From Sphaerodactylus townsendi (lineage: Eukaryota), in the NCBI RefSeq assembly GCF_021028975.2, contig NC_059435.1, positions 19,406,001 to 19,470,000 of the forward strand: DNA of 64,000 nt, read 5' to 3'. A program made the position numbers and the translations under genes. Positions 29,008 through 58,340 of the stretch are shown here, piece after piece; within the stretch, counting starts at the first letter, position 1; each line of letters starts with the position of its first letter. The notes under the pieces were generated by a model. That model saw only the letters and a program-made list of their open reading frames with translations, did no database searches and was not told the origin of the DNA.

Positions 29008-29865
29008 CAATTCCAATGGATTAATATGCATATTGGCTTCCCTGTTTGATCATAACCCTTAGGTCAAATAAGAGCTAATTTGTGCTCCCTATTTTGACAG
29101 TGAAGCACTCGTGTAAAATATTAGGTCATCTGGAATAGTACCCAAAGCCACAACTTTCAATAAATTTGAGTCTAGGGACCACCGATAAAAAGATCTAAGG
29201 ATAGACCTTGGTACAGTTGTCTTCTGCCACTATGGATCCACAGTAATGGTGAAATTCCTAATGAACCAATTCTGCAATTTTCTCATATGTAATCATGCAT
29301 ATGGTACAACCGCAGTAGTGGGTGCCATAAGTCCTAATAGTTTCTGTATGCAAATGGATTTTTAGAACTTTTGTTTAGTAAAGAAACGTGTTCATTTTTG
29401 TGGCCATTGGTGAAGGAAGATATGGTGTGTTGAACCTGGCTTTCAGCATGGCTCCAATGAAGTTAATATTTCGACCCGGTTGCAACTGAGACTTCTCCTG
29501 ATTTACTTACAGGCCTCAAGTCATTGTAAACTTTCATGGCCAGTCGTAACAGAAAAATCAACAAAGCCCAAGAGCTGCCTACAAACAGCCAATTATCTAG
29601 GTCTAGGTAGATGTATAATGTTGAAGCCTCAGGTGGGCCATCACGGCCAAGGGACGTTTTGTGAACACACAAGAGCCATGGCAAACCCAAAGGGCCATGT
29701 AGTGTACTTGTAAAGGCATCCATAATACTCAAACCTCAAAAACTTCCTATCCAGTTCATGAATACTGATATGGAAGTATGCATCCTTCAACTCTTAACAC
29801 AACAAATCTGGAATTTGAAGGAAGTAGCAGTAAGACTTCTTGTAAGGATAACATCCTAAGGAATG

Positions 29866-30017
29866 TATTGTCGAAGGCTTTCACGGCCGGAATCACTGAC
29901 GTTTCGCCTGAATCTGTGGCTGGCATCCTCTGAAGATGCCAGCCACAGATGCAGGCGAAACGTCAGGAGAGAATGCTGCTAGAACACGGCCATACAGCCC
30001 GGAAACCACACAGCACC
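29866..30017. mobile_element. Penelope-like terminal fragment with inverted structure, inserted in the DIRS
   Basis: tattgtcgaaggctttcacggccgg...cacagcacc, with TSD catcctaaggaatg/catcctaagggatg (29852-29865, 30018-30031). Confidence 0.85.
29926..29968 (+). ncRNA. Minimal type I hammerhead ribozyme motif with intact core
   Basis: UCCU-CUGAAGA-U-GCC(...)GGC-GAAA-C-GUC-AGGA: stem I UCCU/AGGA, stem II GCC/GGC, GUC cleavage triplet. Confidence 0.8.
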
Positions 30018-30443
30018 CATCCTAAGGGATGCTTAGGAGTGTTGACTGATTTGTTAAGCTTTCTCTAGTCCACGATGGGCCTTTTGCCACCTAGGATAGA
30101 AACCTATCTCAATCTTTTTAACTGAAGGCTAAATAAACACAGACCTGCCCCAAATTCCTTCTGCTACATTTCTAATGTCTTTCATCACCAAATCAGGGAA
30201 CTACATACACTCATTATCAGGTCCAATGCTTTTGGATACGGGGTGGACAGTCAAGGTTCAAGGCCCTTGGCTTTGAATGGAGAGGAGGGGGAGCTCTCCT
30301 GAGGCACAGAAGCTTCTAGAAGTTTGTCATCAGTGCCCTCAGGCTGGTCTATGCCTGCACAGTCCCATGTGCGACTGTACTGAAGACACAATGATGAATG
30401 ATTGTAACTCCAGGAAAACTCCAAGCCCCACCTGAAAGTTGGC

Positions 30444-33516: not shown

Positions 33517-35331
33517 AGGTGAACCGCCATTTTGTCTACCCTCCCACCACTTCCATTCGGGGAGCTTACCTATCACTTGTGCGTGTGTGTGTACCATCTC
33601 TGGTCCAGCATTACTTCACTAGACCATGTCAATTTCACAATTTCAGCATTTTTTTTAAAAAAAGAGCATTTCTGTTCATTTTGAAATGGTAGCCCAAAGA
33701 GTGGGAGAAACATCTGTTGTGGGGGTGGGGGAAAGTGAGGAGGAGAGAGAAAACTTGAAGAAACTTTAACACACCGTGATCTCCTTCAATTTCCCTGGAA
33801 AGAGAGAGAAGTTGTCCTTGAACAAGTTTCAGAAACTGCGGGGATCCTCTGATCTGAGAGTACAGTGAGTTTCGAAGAGGGGAAAATGCAAACGTAACCA
33901 AGAATCCAACCCGATGGGAATGTATACTCAATGCGAAGGAGACCCAAGTGCGTAAATGGCCTGTAGTTTCCCTGCAACTTTCTCACCTGCCCTTGAAATG
34001 GAAACAACCTCCACAGACAACATTCCAGGTGCACATACTTAATTTATTGAACAATTCTATGGCTGATTATGCTGTGCAATGGGGGTGAATGTCTGTTGCT
34101 GCAAGATTACTTGTATGGATGCATTTCCTCAAGTCCCATTTTTATTTTTCATTCTCTCTGCGGCAAGCAACACCACTTCTAGCATGACTTTTAATTTGCT
34201 TCACTGCCAATGAAGTGGGCAGATTTGCTAGTAAGCACAGCTTTGCCCCAAAGATTTTCCCTCCCCCTACAACCAACCTATCTAGTCCCACCCTTCCCAT
34301 TCCCGCACATTGCTGTCCACACCTTCCCCCTCTTCCCCCCTTTTCATGTTGCAAGCTCTTTCCTGTTTCTCTAAATGCTCACATTGAGATATTGATGTCT
34401 CAATATAATACCGGTAACAGAAAGTTGGCTTTTCCAAGGAAAAGTACAAGTAGAGTCTTTTTTTTTTACTCCACCCCACCTCCTGTCTCTACATCCACCT
34501 TCCCTGAGGACCGGGAAGACTGTTTAAAAATTTATTTCAAACAAGCCTTTTTTAAAAAAACAAGCCTCTCTCTTTTCCTACGACAGCAACAGCAGCTGTG
34601 GGGGTGGGGGAAGAGAAGAGAGGAGGAGGAGAGAACTGGAATCTTTAGGCTATCACCTACTCACTGTTCCTCCAGCTGGATCTCTGGGCATTTATCAGAA
34701 CCTCCAATCATAGCCCCACCCTCTGGAAAAGGCTCCCAGAGGAGGTGAGGGGGGCATTGCCTCTGGATACTGTAAGGAGCAAAACTGCAAGCAAAATTTC
34801 ATTTACTGTGCTTTTTTAATGCATCAATCATTTGCAGAGAGGAGATTATTTGGTTTTTACTGTACCATGTATGTTTTAAATATAAGTTTGAAAACCATCT
34901 TGAGCCACAAAGAAAAGGCCCGGTATGAATATTTTAATGAATAGGTAGAAATATAGCTGTTCCTTGCTATTTGGCACTTCACATGCGTTACAAAACGCAT
35001 TCCTCTATGCAGCAAAGTTGGTATATTGCACAGGTCTTTTACAGTTGGTGACAACTGAGAAACAATTTTAAACTCTCTACATTTAACCATCTCCTCCCAA
35101 GAGCATACCCAAAATATTGTTATGTGATCCAAATCTGCTGCCAGCGCAGTCTGTTTCACAGATGGTCCACCACATCAATCATACGGAAAAGTTCTCATTC
35201 TACCTAGAATGGTTTGGACATGGCATCACCTAAAAACTTTGCTGGCAATTACAGTGCCTGCAATGCTCATTAGGAATTGCACTCGAGTGATAACTCAGAG
35301 AATTTTCAATAATCTTTTAAAAGAACTAATT

Positions 35332-35662
35332 CAGTGGTTCTCAACCTGTGGGTCATGACCCCCTTTGGGGGTCGAATGACCCTTTCACAGGGGCCACCTA
35401 AGACTCTCTGCATCAGTGTTCTCCATCTGTAAAATGGATAAATGTTAGGGTTGGGGGTCACCACAACATGAGGAACTGTGTTAAAGGGTCGCGGTCAGTG
35501 GTGGGATTCAGCAGGTTCGCACCACTTCTGCAGAACCAGTTGTTAAAATGGTGCTTGTAAACAACCAGTTGTTAAATTATTTGAATCCCACCACCAGAAC
35601 CAGTTGTTAAATTATTTGAATCTCACCACTGGTCATGGTATTAGGAAGGTTGAGAACCACTG
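35332..35662. mobile_element. SPIN/URR1-like non-autonomous hAT-Charlie element
   Basis: cagtggttctcaacctgtgggtc...gggggtcaccacaacatgaggaactg...attaggaaggttgagaaccactg resembles recalled URR1/SPIN_NA ends. Perfect TSD aactaatt. Confidence 0.8.
35496..35631. mobile_element. hAT MITE nested in the SPIN-like element
   Basis: TIR cagtggtgggattca / tgaatctcaccactg, with TSD gtcgcggt/gtcatggt. Confidence 0.85.
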
Positions 35663-35872
35663 AACTAATTGGACTCACCCTGAATAGATCATAGCTCCAC
35701 TAGTGAACAGAGTCAGGAATCGAAGTCCTAAACACAGGGCTCCCCCGTTGATGATCAGAAAAGAACTCCTGAGAAAGCAATCAGGCTTAGCTATTTTGTG
35801 AGCATGGAAGATCCACATGGCTATTTTGCTTTGGTGTCCAAAGTATAGTAGTGTTTTTCAGAGGATTCACAC

Positions 35873-36130
35873 CAGAGGCGTAGCTGGGACAGAGTGCGCC
35901 CGGTGCGCACTCTGGCTTTTTCACCCCCCACCCCGCGGCGGCGCCCCCCTCCACTCCCACTCCCACTCCCACTCCCACTTACTTTAGAAAACAGAGCAGG
36001 CTGGAGAACAGGCCTTCCTGTTCTGGTGGGAACTACATTTCCCAGGAGATCCTTGCGCCCCCCCATGTGACCCAAATTCGTGCTCCCGGTGCGTCGCGCA
36101 CCCCCCCACCCCCTGGGAGCTTCATTGCTG
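35873..36130. mobile_element. hAT (Tip100-like) MITE
   Basis: cagaggcgtagc...gcttcattgctg, with perfect TSD attcacac. Confidence 0.75.
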
Positions 36131-36785
36131 ATTCACACACAATTAATCATCTCCTGTCTGGGCTTTTTCTCCTGCTTTGCTATGACCTTTCCTGAAAGAC
36201 TGCAGTTAAAGTGGGTTCCCATGCCACGTGGAGTGGGAAGTGTGCATTTTTTAACAACTCGCCTAGGTCTGCACCATTTTATCCATGCACACCTGTCATT
36301 CCCCGTGCCATTGGAGAGCTTTCTTTTAAAACAGTTGCCATATATAGTGGCTATTTTTTAAAAAAAACAAAATCTATGAAAAGCCCTCTGGTGCCATTTC
36401 CACCCAGTACCACCAGAGGGCTTTTTTGTTGACTCTTTAAAAAGATTAGCTTTTCAAAGCTATCCAGTGGGTCAGAGACAGGGATGCGCACAGGGATGAA
36501 CAAGGAAAACTCAAAGAATATCCCCATATGGGCTCTCTGTTGCATCTGTGAATTCATGTTTGGCATTCAAAGGGAACCGCAGTTGTAGTGACAGTTTTTG
36601 TACAATGGAGAATCATCACCAAATTGATGCAGTTCTAGTTAGATACTGCCAGAGGATGAAGAATGTTGCACTTCTTTTACCTTCTTGGCTCACAGGAACA
36701 CACAAAAACTGCTCAGGAATGTATTCATTTAGTTAAAAACTTATGCCCTCCTTTTTGATTAAATAAAATACTGAGGAACATATAT

Positions 36786-36998
36786 CCTGTTTCCCCGAAT
36801 ATAAGACATCCCCTGAAAATAAGACGTAGTAGAGATATAAGGCACCCCCCAAAAGTAAGACGTAGCAAAGTTTTTGTTTGGAAGCATGCCCAACGAACAG
36901 AACACAGAAAAATAAGACATCCCCTGAAAATAAAACATAGCGCATCTTTGGGAGCAAAAATTAATATAAGACACTGTCTTATTTTCGAGGAAACATGG
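36786..36998. mobile_element. Tc1/mariner-superfamily (Tc2-like) MITE
   Basis: TIR cctgtttccccgaatataagaca / tgtcttattttcgaggaaacatgg in TA context, with internal aaaataagac subrepeats. Confidence 0.75.
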
Positions 36999-37038
36999 TA
37001 ATAAGTTAAAATCATAGCACAGAACAAAATACAAAAGA

Positions 37039-37081
37039 TCCTCTGAAGATGCCAGCCACAGATGAAGGCGAAACGTCAGGA
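37039..37081 (+). ncRNA. Minimal type I hammerhead ribozyme motif with intact core
   Basis: UCCU-CUGAAGA(37043-37049)-U-GCC..GGC-GAAA(37070-37073)-C-GUC(37075-37077)-AGGA. Confidence 0.8.
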
Positions 37082-37132
37082 GAGAATGCTGCTTAGAACA
37101 CGGCCATACAGCCTGGAAACGGCACAGCACCC
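37039..37132 (+). mobile_element. 94-bp Penelope-derived insertion consisting mainly of a hammerhead
   Basis: Perfect 14-bp TSD caaaatacaaaaga (37025-37038, 37133-37146). Confidence 0.88.
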
Positions 37133-38558
37133 CAAAATACAAAAGAAACGGAACCAAAAAAGCAGTGACTGAAAGCAGGGGATAAACCAAAGAGCTATAA
37201 CAAACCAAAATCCAAACTCACTGCAAACTAGTATTAACAGAATGTCAATGCCACAGTTACTCAAACCAGAATTCCAAAATCTCAGTTATTTGGCTAGCAA
37301 GACTCACTCATAAGCGACTGTGTGTCAAACCTCTGATGAGGATCGAACACAGAACAAGGCTTTCTTCAGCTGATGTGAAAGCTCAAGTGTGCCTTAATGT
37401 ACCCTGCCACGGCTTAGCAGCTCCATCCACAGCTGTCAGGCGGACGGTATGGGATAGCTTTGGCGCTGCTCCGCCCACACCAAAGGGCTTTCCCATGGTG
37501 CAGGAAAACAACAACTCACCTTACACTTCCCCATAGTGCAGATTAGAGATATGCCACAAAAATCATGGGATATCTCAGCGAGTGGCTCCACTGACGGAAG
37601 GCCCGAACTGGGTCTGGAGGCCAACTATGGTCAGCCTTCCCCCCTGGTCTGCCCCCAATATGCCTCTTGCCAGGCTGGTGCAGCGTTTTGCACCAGCAGG
37701 CCTGGGCGACAGATGTTGTGCTGCACCCACCTGGGTAAGCACCTCCTCTGCATTTGCCCCCTGTGCTGGCGGAATGGGCATTTCCACCAGCACAGGGTGC
37801 GCTGGTTCCACAGGTGGATTAAGCCCCCTCCCCAGATGGAGCTGCCCAGCTTTAAACACCAAAATCAGCACTTCTAATTTGGACACAGAAACGAACTAGA
37901 AACCAGTGAAACTGAATCAATGGCAGGATAACAAAACCGAGGAAAGTTTTTCTCAGTCAGTCAGCAATCATATAACCATATCCTGAACCAATTACAATTT
38001 CTCAAAACTTTTGAAAGGATTGTACCACCCAGAGCACATTATAATTGCCCAGCATGGAAATCTCCAAGGCATATATAATCATGGCAAGATTCATAGTTTA
38101 GTGAGCGTACTTTCTGCAGAGTCCAAGGCCCCACGGTTGCAAACATTCATTATTAATTAATTCCTGGGGAAAGGCTGTGGTTCAAAAAATGTTGATGCAA
38201 TTATCTTTGGCCTTTTTGCATACCTAATATGAACTAGAGCAATATTACCAAGACAAGACAGACAAAAATATTTGTGGGATCCAGTGTTATTATCAAAGCA
38301 TGTTGCTTTTTTGATATTTGACCAAATAACTTTGATTACTGTACCACCAAACTTACCAAAATAACTAGAAAGGAAACAATCCTTTCAAGTGATGATCTTA
38401 CATAGCAAAAAATAATGATGTATCAAAATCCTATCACCCGCCCACAGATGAATACTTGTCTCAGACAGCAGCCCTTGTATCCTGAGAAGCAGCCCTTCAA
38501 GCAATTGCAACTCCAGCAATAAAGCTGCTATCATAAGCTTTGGTAGGACAGTCTGGAC

Positions 38559-38893
38559 CAGTGTTTCCCAACATTTTCAATGTCACAGTACCCTTGACCT
38601 CACTCTTCTTATCTCACGGTACCCCTGCCATCCCCCCCCCACCTTCCCTTCCCAGTGCCCCTGCTTGCCACCCCACCCCCACCTTCTCCTCCCAGGGTGA
38701 AGGGAAGCACTGTGGGGCGGGAAGCGGCTGCTGACCTTGCGGAGGGTCCTGCCCCCTGGGCCAGCTCCATGTCCTTGCTGGCACCAGCAGAAGACACTGC
38801 AAAAGTGACGGGAGCAGGTAGCGTTGCCGTGGTACCCCTGGGACATGCTCACGGCACCCCAGGGTACCATGGAACCCTGGTTGGGAATCACTG
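38559..38893. mobile_element. hAT-Charlie-like MITE
   Basis: Homologous to 27678-28013; perfect TSD gtctggac. Confidence 0.9.
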
Positions 38894-39184
38894 GTCTGGA
38901 CCTTGTCTCTTATATTGTCCCCAATCCCCCCTCCCCCCAAGATATGAAGAAAAAGCAATGGGTGTAATTAAATGAGAAATGATGGATGTAGGAGTAATTC
39001 TCCATGTGGCTGTATAAGGACCATAAGAACTTCATGGACTCGTTAAAAGGCTAAGACTGCATCAGGCATATGGCTGCAAGTATTGGTTTGGATAAATGCA
39101 CCCTGGCCTTGTACTTAGAACTCTTGGCTTCTTTTAGAACTTGGCTTGCATTAACAAGCAAGCAAGTTTATTGAGAAGAGAAGA

Positions 39185-53577: not shown

Positions 53578-53632
53578 CTTATGTTATTTCAGTCCTCTGC
53601 ATTAAGATCCAAACAGCTAAGTAAGCCCTTAC

Positions 53633-53776
53633 CTGAGAGGACAGCAAATTGCAGTCCACATGCATCCCCTTCCCTGTTTTATGGCTCTGAAGAAGTGCAG
53701 CCATTATTGCTCCATACACATAAAGGCCTGTAGCAAGATCAGTCATAGCTACTCCAGGTCTAACTGGCTCACCGCC
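53633..53776 (-). CDS. SUGCT: SUGCT internal coding exon (144 bp, phase 0 to 0): [48 protein letters not shown]
   Basis: Absent from the ORF track; found by hand. Borders are ttttag|GGCGGT...TCTCAG|gtaagg. It is in frame with both neighbouring exons and contains the family III nucleophile Asp of AMTD (codon 53738-53740). Confidence 0.96.
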
Positions 53777-54136
53777 CTAAAAGATGCAAACAAGAGAGGA
53801 AAGAAGAATCGACATTTCAATGCTGTCTATCGTTTCAGTACTCTTTACTGCTCACTGTAATAAAATCTTACTAATACCATGTCAGACACTGCCATGATAT
53901 CAAGAATTGAAAAGGACTACATTGTACCTTGAATCATCTAGGAGTACAAACAGTGGCCTCAGTCATAACTGTAGTGATCAGAATTGCCAGAATAAGTTCT
54001 GAGGGAGGGTGAACAAATAAATAATTAAATCTCTCCACATGTTTATTATACATCTGGCACATTTTTTTTTGCATCTCCCACATCCAGTAAGTGTTCAAAG
54101 TCCAAATAGGAGGACAGCTTGCGCATCTCCTGAGCA

Positions 54137-54359: not shown

Positions 54360-54740
54360 CTGGTTGTTAGGTTATGGTGGCGACTTTGGTACTTGGACTG
54401 ATACTATCAGTTCCCTGCCAGCATGTCCAATTGGCCATGCTGGCAGGGGCTGATGGGAATTGTAGTCCATAACATCTGGAGTGCCAAAGGTTCGCCACCA
54501 CTGTTGTGGGCTTTTCGGGCTGTGTGACCGTGGTCTGGTAGATCTTGTTCCTAATGTTTCGCCTCCATCTGTGGCTGGCATCTTCAGAGGTGTATCACAG
54601 AGACAAGTGTGTTCACACTTCTGAAGATGCCAGTCACAGATGCAGGGGAAACATCAGGAACAAGATCTACCAGATTATGGTCACACAGCCTGGAAAGCCC
54701 ACAACAACCAGTTGAGTCCGGCCGTGAAAGCCTGTGACAA
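54360..54740. mobile_element. Penelope-like inverted-repeat fragment (two degenerate hammerheads), with a MITE at 54372-54503 inserted
   Basis: Arms 54504-54588 and 54620-54704 are reverse complements; the element ends ggccgtgaaagcctgtgacaa. Confidence 0.8.
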
Positions 54741-58204: not shown

Positions 58205-58296
58205 CTCAGGCCCTGTGATATGCAAGAGTCCGGAAACAGCAGCTGCAACAGAGTCATAGCCTGCTCGTTGAAACTTTGGACCAGTTTGACCGTAGC
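58205..58296 (-). CDS. SUGCT: SUGCT internal coding exon (92 bp, phase 1 to 0): (G)[30 protein letters not shown]
   Basis: Minus strand reads ttttattttag|GCTACGGT...CCTGAG|gtatac. The peptide matches the recalled human SUGCT segment [31 protein letters not shown], with the G-x-G-x-x-G-P...GYD motif of CoA-transferase family III. Confidence 0.96.
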
Positions 58297-58340
58297 CTAA
58301 AATAAAAACAAGGACACTATTAAGGTGGAATATACAGAAA

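What the first reader, a model, noticed from the sequence alone, without database searches (positions are those of the whole stretch)
37039..37132. A 94-bp TSD-flanked insertion that is essentially a stand-alone hammerhead ribozyme
Seen: a perfect 14-bp TSD brackets a unit that begins exactly at stem I of a complete type I hammerhead (UCCU/AGGA, CUGAAGA, GCC/GGC, GAAA, GUC). Established: Penelope-like elements carry minimal hammerheads with a near-absent stem III that are thought to cleave as dimers. Inference: this is either a heavily truncated PLE or a tiny non-autonomous ribozyme-bearing retroelement mobilised in trans.
Basis: partly seen in the sequence, partly recalled or inferred. Interest (0 to 1): 0.7.

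Follow-up and report, generated by a model that had tools for sequence, protein, structure and literature searches.

The report
Short Penelope retrotransposon stub with ribozyme
This 94-base insert is the front end of a very common lizard jumping gene of a known kind (Penelope/Poseidon) and carries that gene's minimal hammerhead motif; its size recurs because copying likely starts at a fixed internal site and likely runs off the front of the RNA, so it is probably a dead by-product and not a self-spreading ribozyme element.

Summary
Observation confirmed: perfect 14-bp duplication around a 94-bp body with a minimal (not complete) type I hammerhead. The body is 89/94 identical to the start of a Poseidon-type Penelope-like element whose intact 819-aa RT ORF begins inside the ribozyme (ATG 37049); one 32-mer of the family has 12,318 exact genomic matches. 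Anatomy matches PAc of Anolis (Frangieh 2024). Ends are not random: of 100 arms sampled by their 3' part, 3' ends fall in two groups (49 tail-less like this one, 50 tailed) and 34 5' ends lie at element -5..-1, about 25 times the background rate, 30-35 nt behind a TATA-like box. Long ORF-bearing copies stop there too, and stubs have no private variants or promoter, so there is no separate mini-element. Best reading: run-off cDNA from the internal RT start to the likely transcription start. A weaker excess of ends at the ribozyme cut site (148 against 51-76) hints at cleavage in vivo. The copy lies antisense in a host intron. This scan reported the same family and reading before on other DNA of this genome.

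The parts
37025..37038 (+). Left target-site duplication (14 bp, A-rich); last 3 nt (AGA, 37036-38) also match element positions -3..-1
37039..37132 (+). Body: front end of a Poseidon-type Penelope-like element, tail-less; 89/94 identical to the intact-ORF copy L201 (4 substitutions, 1 inserted T)
37039..37081 (+). Minimal type I hammerhead motif: stem I 37039-42/37078-81, core CUGAAGA 37043-49, extra U 37050, stem II 37051-53/37067-69, GAAA 37070-73, ACGU palindrome 37073-76, predicted cut after C37077
   Evidence: layout as in PMC4209133 and PMC11167929; cleavage not tested
37049..37051 (+). Start codon of the parent element's RT-endonuclease ORF (here only the first 84 nt remain, with a frameshift)
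   Evidence: ORF L201:4299-6755, 819 aa, starts at the same ATG
37082..37132 (+). Rest of the ORF start up to the tail-less 3' end, the inner of the two family 3' end points (likely RT start site)
   Evidence: 49 of 100 arms end at 93-100, 50 of 100 at 121-136; PMC11167929
37133..37146 (+). Right target-site duplication; first 2 nt (CA) also match element positions 94-95

Best explanation
The insert is a promoter-less front-end piece of a Poseidon-type Penelope-like retrotransposon, likely made when the element's own protein nicked A/T-rich DNA, began reverse transcription at the inner of its two internal start sites and likely ran off the 5' end of the RNA about 96 nt later. Shown here: family identity, the parent ORF, both end-point hot spots, the duplication and the short matches at both junctions. 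Taken from work on the Anolis relative PAc: nicking of A/T-rich DNA, internal priming at two sites, ribozyme cleavage only with protein and not needed for insertion. Inferred: the 5' hot spot is the Pol II start (A at element -3, in an initiator-like TCAGATC, 30 or 35 nt behind TATATATA), the joint was closed by the 3-nt AGA match, and the RNA was uncut, since both halves of the ribozyme are present. The hammerhead is a passenger: it lies between the RNA start and the priming site, so any such product carries it. The copy lacks the TATA region and lies antisense in a host intron, so it is likely silent and cannot spread.
For: Parent: 819-aa ORF with RVT_1 (E 1.1e-12) starts at the ATG inside the motif; N-terminal 59 aa are 43/59 identical to PAc (my by-eye translation of the RNA printed); cut site 26 nt after the ATG as in PAc. 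3' ends: 49 of 100 at 93-100, 50 of 100 at 121-136, 1 between. 5' ends: 34 of 100 at -5..-1, 50 of 100 at -7..+7; stop rate 0.135 per nt against 0.005-0.007 at +8..+61, -8..-60 and -61..-200. In 30 copies chosen for carrying the ORF start, 7 of the 13 that reach +4 stop at -5..+4, so long cDNAs end at the same place. TATAWAWR sits at -30/-32 (8 of 23 arms that reach -38), -35 (6), -39 (1), no exact match in 8. Same architecture elsewhere: L061 and L115 (tail-less, start -5, 12- and 14-bp duplication abutting), L073 and L098 (tailed) = 4 of 100 arms. The stops lie on the far (5') side of the hammerhead fold, where a structure block is not expected (inference). Host: exons of a CoA-transferase III gene on the minus strand flank the site.
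Against: No RNA 5'-end data: the start site rests on motif spacing and on insertion ends. Ends at -2 (10) are about as common as at -3 (12), and many hot-spot joints are inversions where the GATC and TCAGA/TCTGA palindromes give microhomology, which can make a hot spot by itself. The same place reads as a 3' splice site (pyrimidine tract, CAG|A), and in D. virilis Penelope an intron ends at helix I (PMC4209133) and the promoter is internal and TATA-less (PMC2377424). The subfamily with the -35 spacing fits less well. The 100 arms come from the first 9.8 Mb of one contig, from the young subfamily only, include 17 pairs from one event each, and two arms (L116, L120) were mis-mapped by insertions; the finding itself differs from the anchoring 32-mer.
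Confidence: 0.7

Rival explanations
1. Same Penelope piece, but the 5' hot spot comes from sequence, not from the RNA end: the small palindromes at -5..+8 let the cDNA fold back, anneal to a second cDNA or pair with the target, ending synthesis there.
For: TCAGA-TCC-TCTGA is an inverted repeat and GATC a palindrome (sequence); many hot-spot arms have an inverted partner joined there; L012/L013 is a perfect palindrome centred on GGATCC.
Against: 22 of the 34 hot-spot ends are at -2 or -3, before the 5-bp hairpin is complete; simple non-inverted inserts (this one, L061, L073, L098, L115) end there too; a TATA-like box lies at the expected distance.
Confidence: 0.12
2. The hot spot is a splice acceptor: the template is a spliced RNA and copying ends at or just past the exon junction.
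Against: Of 37 arms ending at -5..+1, 32 could be tested; none had upstream sense pLTR sequence followed by GT joined at -1 (one 10-nt hit lay in an inverted arm and was followed by CT). Upstream letters are inverted element, short duplications or target DNA. A first exon under 10 nt would be missed.
Confidence: 0.08
3. A self-propagating non-autonomous ribozyme mini-element (SINE-like or retrozyme monomer) of about 94 bp, moved in trans by the Penelope protein.
For: Recurring size class with 12-14-bp duplications; animal retrozymes derive from pLTRs (bioRxiv 10.64898/2026.07.22.740005). Truncated copies that keep the TATA region (23 of 100 arms) could give RNA that yields only short products, which is a form of trans-mobilisation (inference).
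Against: The unit lacks the TATA region; its variants (A at 27, GG near the 3' end) also occur in tailed, inverted and long copies (L002, L003, L008, L010, L014), so stubs are no lineage; exact architecture is only 2 of 100 arms; no tandem array here; a ribozyme-released RNA would begin at position 40, not at -3..+1.
Confidence: 0.06
4. Ordinary random 5' truncation that happened to stop at the ribozyme's first base.
For: Half of the arms do end at scattered places (50 of 100 outside -7..+7).
Against: Stop rate at -5..-1 is about 25 times the background; background gives about 0.5% per nt.
Confidence: 0.04

Closest known systems
PAc / Poseidon_Ac, Penelope/Poseidon-clade element of Anolis carolinensis (Frangieh et al. 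2024, PMC11167929)
   Same: ORF starts at hammerhead stem II; cut site 26 nt after the ATG; two 3' end points with and without a 30-40-nt tail, the outer near +111-118 of the ORF; A/T-rich targets; about 820-aa RT plus C-terminal endonuclease; 43/59 aa identical at the N terminus (by eye).
   Different: Another species and subfamily. The text read does not describe a 5' end hot spot, a TATA/initiator start, or minimal TSD-flanked stubs, and found no RNA reads starting at the cut site; its Fig. S2 (genomic coverage) could not be seen and may already show the 5' drop.
Minimal hammerheads of metazoan Penelope-like elements (Cervera and De la Pena 2014, PMC4209133)
   Same: No helix III, palindromic 15.2-16.2, extra base between 9 and 10.1, G10.1-C11.1 pair, 4-bp helix I, mostly single motifs in truncated copies.
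   Different: Stem II here is 3 canonical pairs plus an imperfect extension (one further pair is broken by the A variant); activity untested.
Insertion structure of endonuclease-bearing PLEs (Craig et al. 2021, PMC8557442)
   Same: 5'-truncated copies, inverted partner, tail at only one end (16 of 17 pairs here).
   Different: This copy is a single arm without an inverted partner.
Animal non-LTR retrozymes (bioRxiv 10.64898/2026.07.22.740005; PMC7229834 seen as listing only)
   Same: Non-coding, type I hammerhead, PLE-derived, monomers exist.
   Different: Defined by tandem units with a hammerhead in each; this is one unit, and it is the ORF start of an element with intact copies in the genome.
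Retroviral minus-strand strong-stop DNA (recalled, analogy only)
   Same: Short cDNA from an internal priming site to the RNA's 5' end, covering the terminally redundant part.
   Different: No tRNA primer, no strand transfer, and the product is joined to chromosomal DNA from the start.

Membership tests
Penelope/Poseidon-type PLE (fragment) | Parent with one ORF: RT plus C-terminal GIY-YIG endonuclease | tested here: met
   L201:4299-6755, 819 aa, RVT_1 E 1.1e-12. C-terminal GVY..YIG with C/H residues seen by eye; Pfam support for that domain is weak (T5orf172 E 0.067, under the cut-off; no hit).
Penelope/Poseidon-type PLE (fragment) | Terminal redundancy (pLTR) with the hammerhead at the ORF start | tested here: met
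   L202 has the 94-bp core before the ORF (4359) and again after it (7029).
Penelope/Poseidon-type PLE (fragment) | Two 3' end points differing by a 30-40-nt tail | tested here: met
   49 and 50 of 100 arms; this copy is tail-less.
Penelope/Poseidon-type PLE (fragment) | Frequent inverted 5'-truncated partner | tested here: met
   Common in the family; absent from this copy.
Penelope/Poseidon-type PLE (fragment) | RT falls in the Penelope/Poseidon clade on a tree | not tested
   No tree built; only by-eye identity to PAc's N terminus.
Minimal type I hammerhead | Core C3 U4 G5 A6 N7 G8 A9, G12 A13 A14, A15.1-U16.1, H17; stems I and II; palindromic helix III stub | tested here: met
   All core letters intact; 4-bp and 3-bp stems; ACGU self-pairs.
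Minimal type I hammerhead | Self-cleavage | not testable with these tools
   Predicted pairing probability of stem I about 0.01 and of stem II about 0.05 in context; a competing fold wins; fold z-score -0.65. These models ignore tertiary contacts and protein.
Non-LTR retrozyme | Tandem array of at least two units, each with a hammerhead | tested here: not met
   Single unit; nearest other copies at 29.9 kb and 54.5 kb of the window.
Non-LTR retrozyme | Circular RNA from the unit | not testable with these tools
   No raw RNA reads available.
SINE-like non-autonomous element | Own lineage with shared diagnostic variants and fixed ends not shared with the parent | tested here: not met
   Variants shared with tailed, inverted and long copies; ORF-bearing copies share the 5' end. 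No formal tree.
SINE-like non-autonomous element | Promoter inside the unit | tested here: inconclusive
   The TATA-like box lies outside the unit; internal Pol II or Pol III signals were not scanned or assayed.

The most novel reading that the evidence does not exclude
The end points of this family are a fossil map of the Penelope RNA in the germ line: about a third to a half of all arms end at a TATA/initiator Pol II start just before the hammerhead, giving a strong-stop-like class of 95- and 130-nt inserts that promoter-keeping truncated copies can feed in trans, and a small minority end exactly at the hammerhead cut site, which would be the first in vivo sign that a metazoan PLE minimal hammerhead cleaves and that the cut RNA is still used as template.
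Probability: 0.4. Interest if true: 0.55.

Novelty: new member of a known kind. Interest (0 to 1): 0.27.

Why it matters
The copy itself is one of many thousand relics and likely does nothing. The family-level pattern matters modestly: how Penelope-like elements finish an insertion and what their hammerhead is for are open questions (PMC11167929, PMC8557442). If the 5' hot spot is the RNA start, the main product of this element is a dead 95-130-nt stub, which explains why single minimal hammerheads litter such genomes without any selection on the ribozyme, and it names an exact promoter to test. If the excess at the cut site holds, it is genomic evidence for cleavage in vivo, which RNA-seq did not give.

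Tried and rejected
Rfam scan of 35000-39000: no hammerhead family among 10 weak hits. Folding: no significant stability of the unit (z -0.65). A second CUGAUGA at about 37333 was considered and rejected: no GAAA/stem I partner in the motif scan, which found only 29930 and 37043. RNA runs: no RNA holder listed; contigs cannot show starts. Empty site: none shown among the joints listed in 6 runs laid (tables are cut); runs X6, X7 and X10 of another organism label have a contig from 37115 onward with about 3.5% flank differences, only 18 letters on the element side, so a shared insertion is a weak hint. Spliced first exon: not found in 32 testable arms. All-against-all extension was dropped as a measure of 5' ends because shared inversions inflate it. 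The first 30 loci were not used for end statistics since they were chosen for matching the whole 94 bp. The count of 4,653 was not used as a stub count: about a fifth of the 100 listed rows belong to another subfamily with different upstream sequence. Pfam scan of 60 of the 90 long frames of the window gave one hit. Literature searches returned no paper whose title, abstract start or read passages describe the 5' hot spot or ends at the cut site; most subscription journals and Repbase are not covered. Look-ups near this place and by sequence in earlier findings were empty. No tree, no protein database search and no structure job was run.

Full report
Observation. The window shows a perfect 14-bp direct repeat at 37025-37038 and 37133-37146 around a 94-bp body. 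Only CG separates GAAA from UC, so helix III needs a second molecule through the ACGU palindrome: a minimal motif. Rfam does not detect it, and ViennaRNA prefers a competing fold (stem I probability about 0.01). Exact 14-mers at this spacing occur 19 times in the window, so it is the fit to the ends of a known repeat that makes this a target-site duplication. Both junctions appear without a difference in short-read contigs of run X5, which may be the source sample.

What it belongs to. The body has further copies in the window at 362-454, 29926-30018 and 54502-54740 and a 32-mer of its 3' part has 12,318 exact matches in the 1.81-Gb genome, control 0. Longer copies continue upstream through a non-coding stretch into an endonuclease-like C terminus. 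L201 holds an intact 819-aa ORF with an RT domain (RVT_1, E 1.1e-12) that starts at the ATG inside the hammerhead, which is 37049 in the finding; the finding is 89/94 identical to it. L202 has the core on both sides of the ORF. This is the anatomy of PAc, the Poseidon element of Anolis carolinensis: ORF start at stem II, cut site 26 nt after the ATG, reverse transcription starting at two internal sites separated by the 30-40-nt tail, A/T-rich targets, both strands nicked and extended, ribozyme cleavage only with protein and not needed for insertion (PMC11167929; I read parts 1-3 of 4 of the text and the text of supplements 1 and 2; figures not visible, the xlsx not read, the gbk not readable). 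By eye the first 59 aa are 43/59 identical to PAc. A squamate host is inferred from that likeness.

End points. To avoid choosing on the 5' end I took the first 100 exact matches of the 3' 32-mer; all lie in the first 9.8 Mb of contig C1 and 17 pairs are two arms of one event. Numbering is from the first base of stem I. 3' ends: 49 of 100 at 93-100, 50 of 100 at 121-136, 1 at 111; the finding is of the first, tail-less group. 5' ends: 34 of 100 at -5..-1 (12 at -3, 10 at -2), 50 at -7..+7, 23 at +8..+61, 27 beyond -7; two arms (L116, L120) are mis-mapped by insertions and were left in. The stop rate is 0.135 per nt at -5..-1 against 0.005-0.007 elsewhere. Among 30 copies chosen for carrying the ORF start, 13 reach +4 and 7 of them stop at -5..+4; 14 stop between +15 and +114 and 3 were not mapped. 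So short and long cDNAs end at the same place. The finding's exact architecture (single tail-less arm, hot-spot start, abutting duplication) recurs in L061 and L115, and with a tail in L073 and L098.

What the 5' hot spot is. In the 23 arms that reach -38, a TATAWAWR match lies at -30 or -32 (8 arms), -35 (6) or -39 (1) from the A at -3, with no exact match in 8; that A stands in TCAGATC, which fits the initiator consensus YYANWYY (consensus recalled). I therefore read the hot spot as the likely Pol II start and the insert as a run-off product. In the finding the AGA at the end of the left repeat matches -3..-1, so the copy is compatible with starting exactly there and joining by a 3-nt match. 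Against this: no RNA data; D. virilis Penelope has an internal TATA-less promoter (PMC2377424, passages) and an intron ending at helix I (PMC4209133, parts 1-2 of 4); the site also reads as a splice acceptor, though none of 32 testable arms (of 37) carried a spliced upstream exon; and small palindromes at the site give microhomology for the frequent inversions.

Not a separate mini-element. The unit lacks the TATA region; its variants recur in tailed, inverted and long copies; it is not in tandem, which retrozymes require (bioRxiv 10.64898/2026.07.22.740005, parts 1-3 of 5); and an RNA freed by the ribozyme would begin at +40. What stays open is the donor: truncated copies that keep the promoter would give RNA with one priming region and so only short products, a trans route that cannot be told from the stub.

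Ends at the cut site. Whole-genome patterns demanding three mismatches just before a position gave 148 matches at +40, the base after the predicted cut, against 65 at +38, 51 at +43 and 76 at +45. In the 100 listed of 671 matches of a wider pattern I counted by eye 15 of 95 ends at +40 (5 rows with internal indels dropped), the highest of 15 positions, but +48 and +49 had 11 and 10. About 17 of the 100 listed rows at +40 have a CAG-AGGA joint that stem I complementarity itself can cause, and 5 are pairs from one event. This is a hint of cleavage in vivo in a small minority of RNAs, not proof. It does not concern this copy, which came from uncut RNA.

Surroundings. Exons of a CoA-transferase family III gene lie on the minus strand on both sides (window 58205-58312 and 53624-53782; another 40 kb left of the window); the exon sequence resembles SUGCT (recalled). 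The ribozyme strand is thus antisense to the host pre-mRNA. A repeat with 26-nt terminal inverted repeats ends 24 bp upstream.

Prior knowledge and verdict. Inverted partners and a tail at one end are described (PMC8557442, passages); 16 of 17 pairs here have one tailed and one tail-less arm. Five literature searches showed no description of the 5' hot spot, but Fig. S2 of PMC11167929 may contain it. My reading was noted before the look-up, which showed that this scan had reached the same family and much the same reading on other DNA of this genome; those are unchecked AI notes and no support. Verdict: real, a new member of a known kind, likely inert; interest 0.27, resting on the family-level end-point pattern.

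Noticed in passing
window 29859-30018, 329-475, 54502-54740: Three more insertions of the family: a fold-back with a tailed inverted piece, a tailed copy with a short inverted piece, and an older, about 78% identical head-to-head pair from a subfamily with different upstream sequence.
   Followed up: partly
17 inverted pairs among L062-L131: 16 of 17 pairs have one tailed and one tail-less arm, as expected if each nicked strand is primed at a different one of the two start sites.
   Followed up: partly
genome-wide, element position +40: 5' ends are 2-3 times more frequent at the base after the predicted ribozyme cut than at three control positions (148 against 65, 51, 76).
   Followed up: partly
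window 36783-37000: Miniature element with 26-nt terminal inverted repeats, internal 32-nt repeats and TA at both ends, very high copy in the runs laid; likely a Tc1/mariner-type MITE (recalled).
   Followed up: no
window 53624-53782 and 58205-58312, minus strand: Exons of a CoA-transferase family III gene spanning more than 135 kb; the finding lies in one of its introns, antisense.
   Followed up: partly
window 36379-36425: Perfect 15-bp inverted repeat with a 17-nt loop followed by T's; cause of the weak Rfam terminator-like hits; unexplained.
   Followed up: no
L094 (G000:C1:4970916-4971060): Head-to-tail pair of two cores joined by upstream sequence of the other subfamily; the first core lacks the front of the hammerhead. 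The only direct tandem among the 100 arms apart from short duplications.
   Followed up: no
many hot-spot joints, e.g. L088, L090, L101, L102, L110: Short duplications of the first 10-12 nt of the element at the 5' joint, as repeated template jumps at an RNA end would give.
   Followed up: no
L149/L201 (G000:C3:109298-111754) and L157: Intact ORF copy near a contig end with no downstream core found; a second copy also lacks it.
   Followed up: no
L090 and L124: Share about 2.5 kb of upstream sequence at 96%, so these two arms may not be independent.
   Followed up: no
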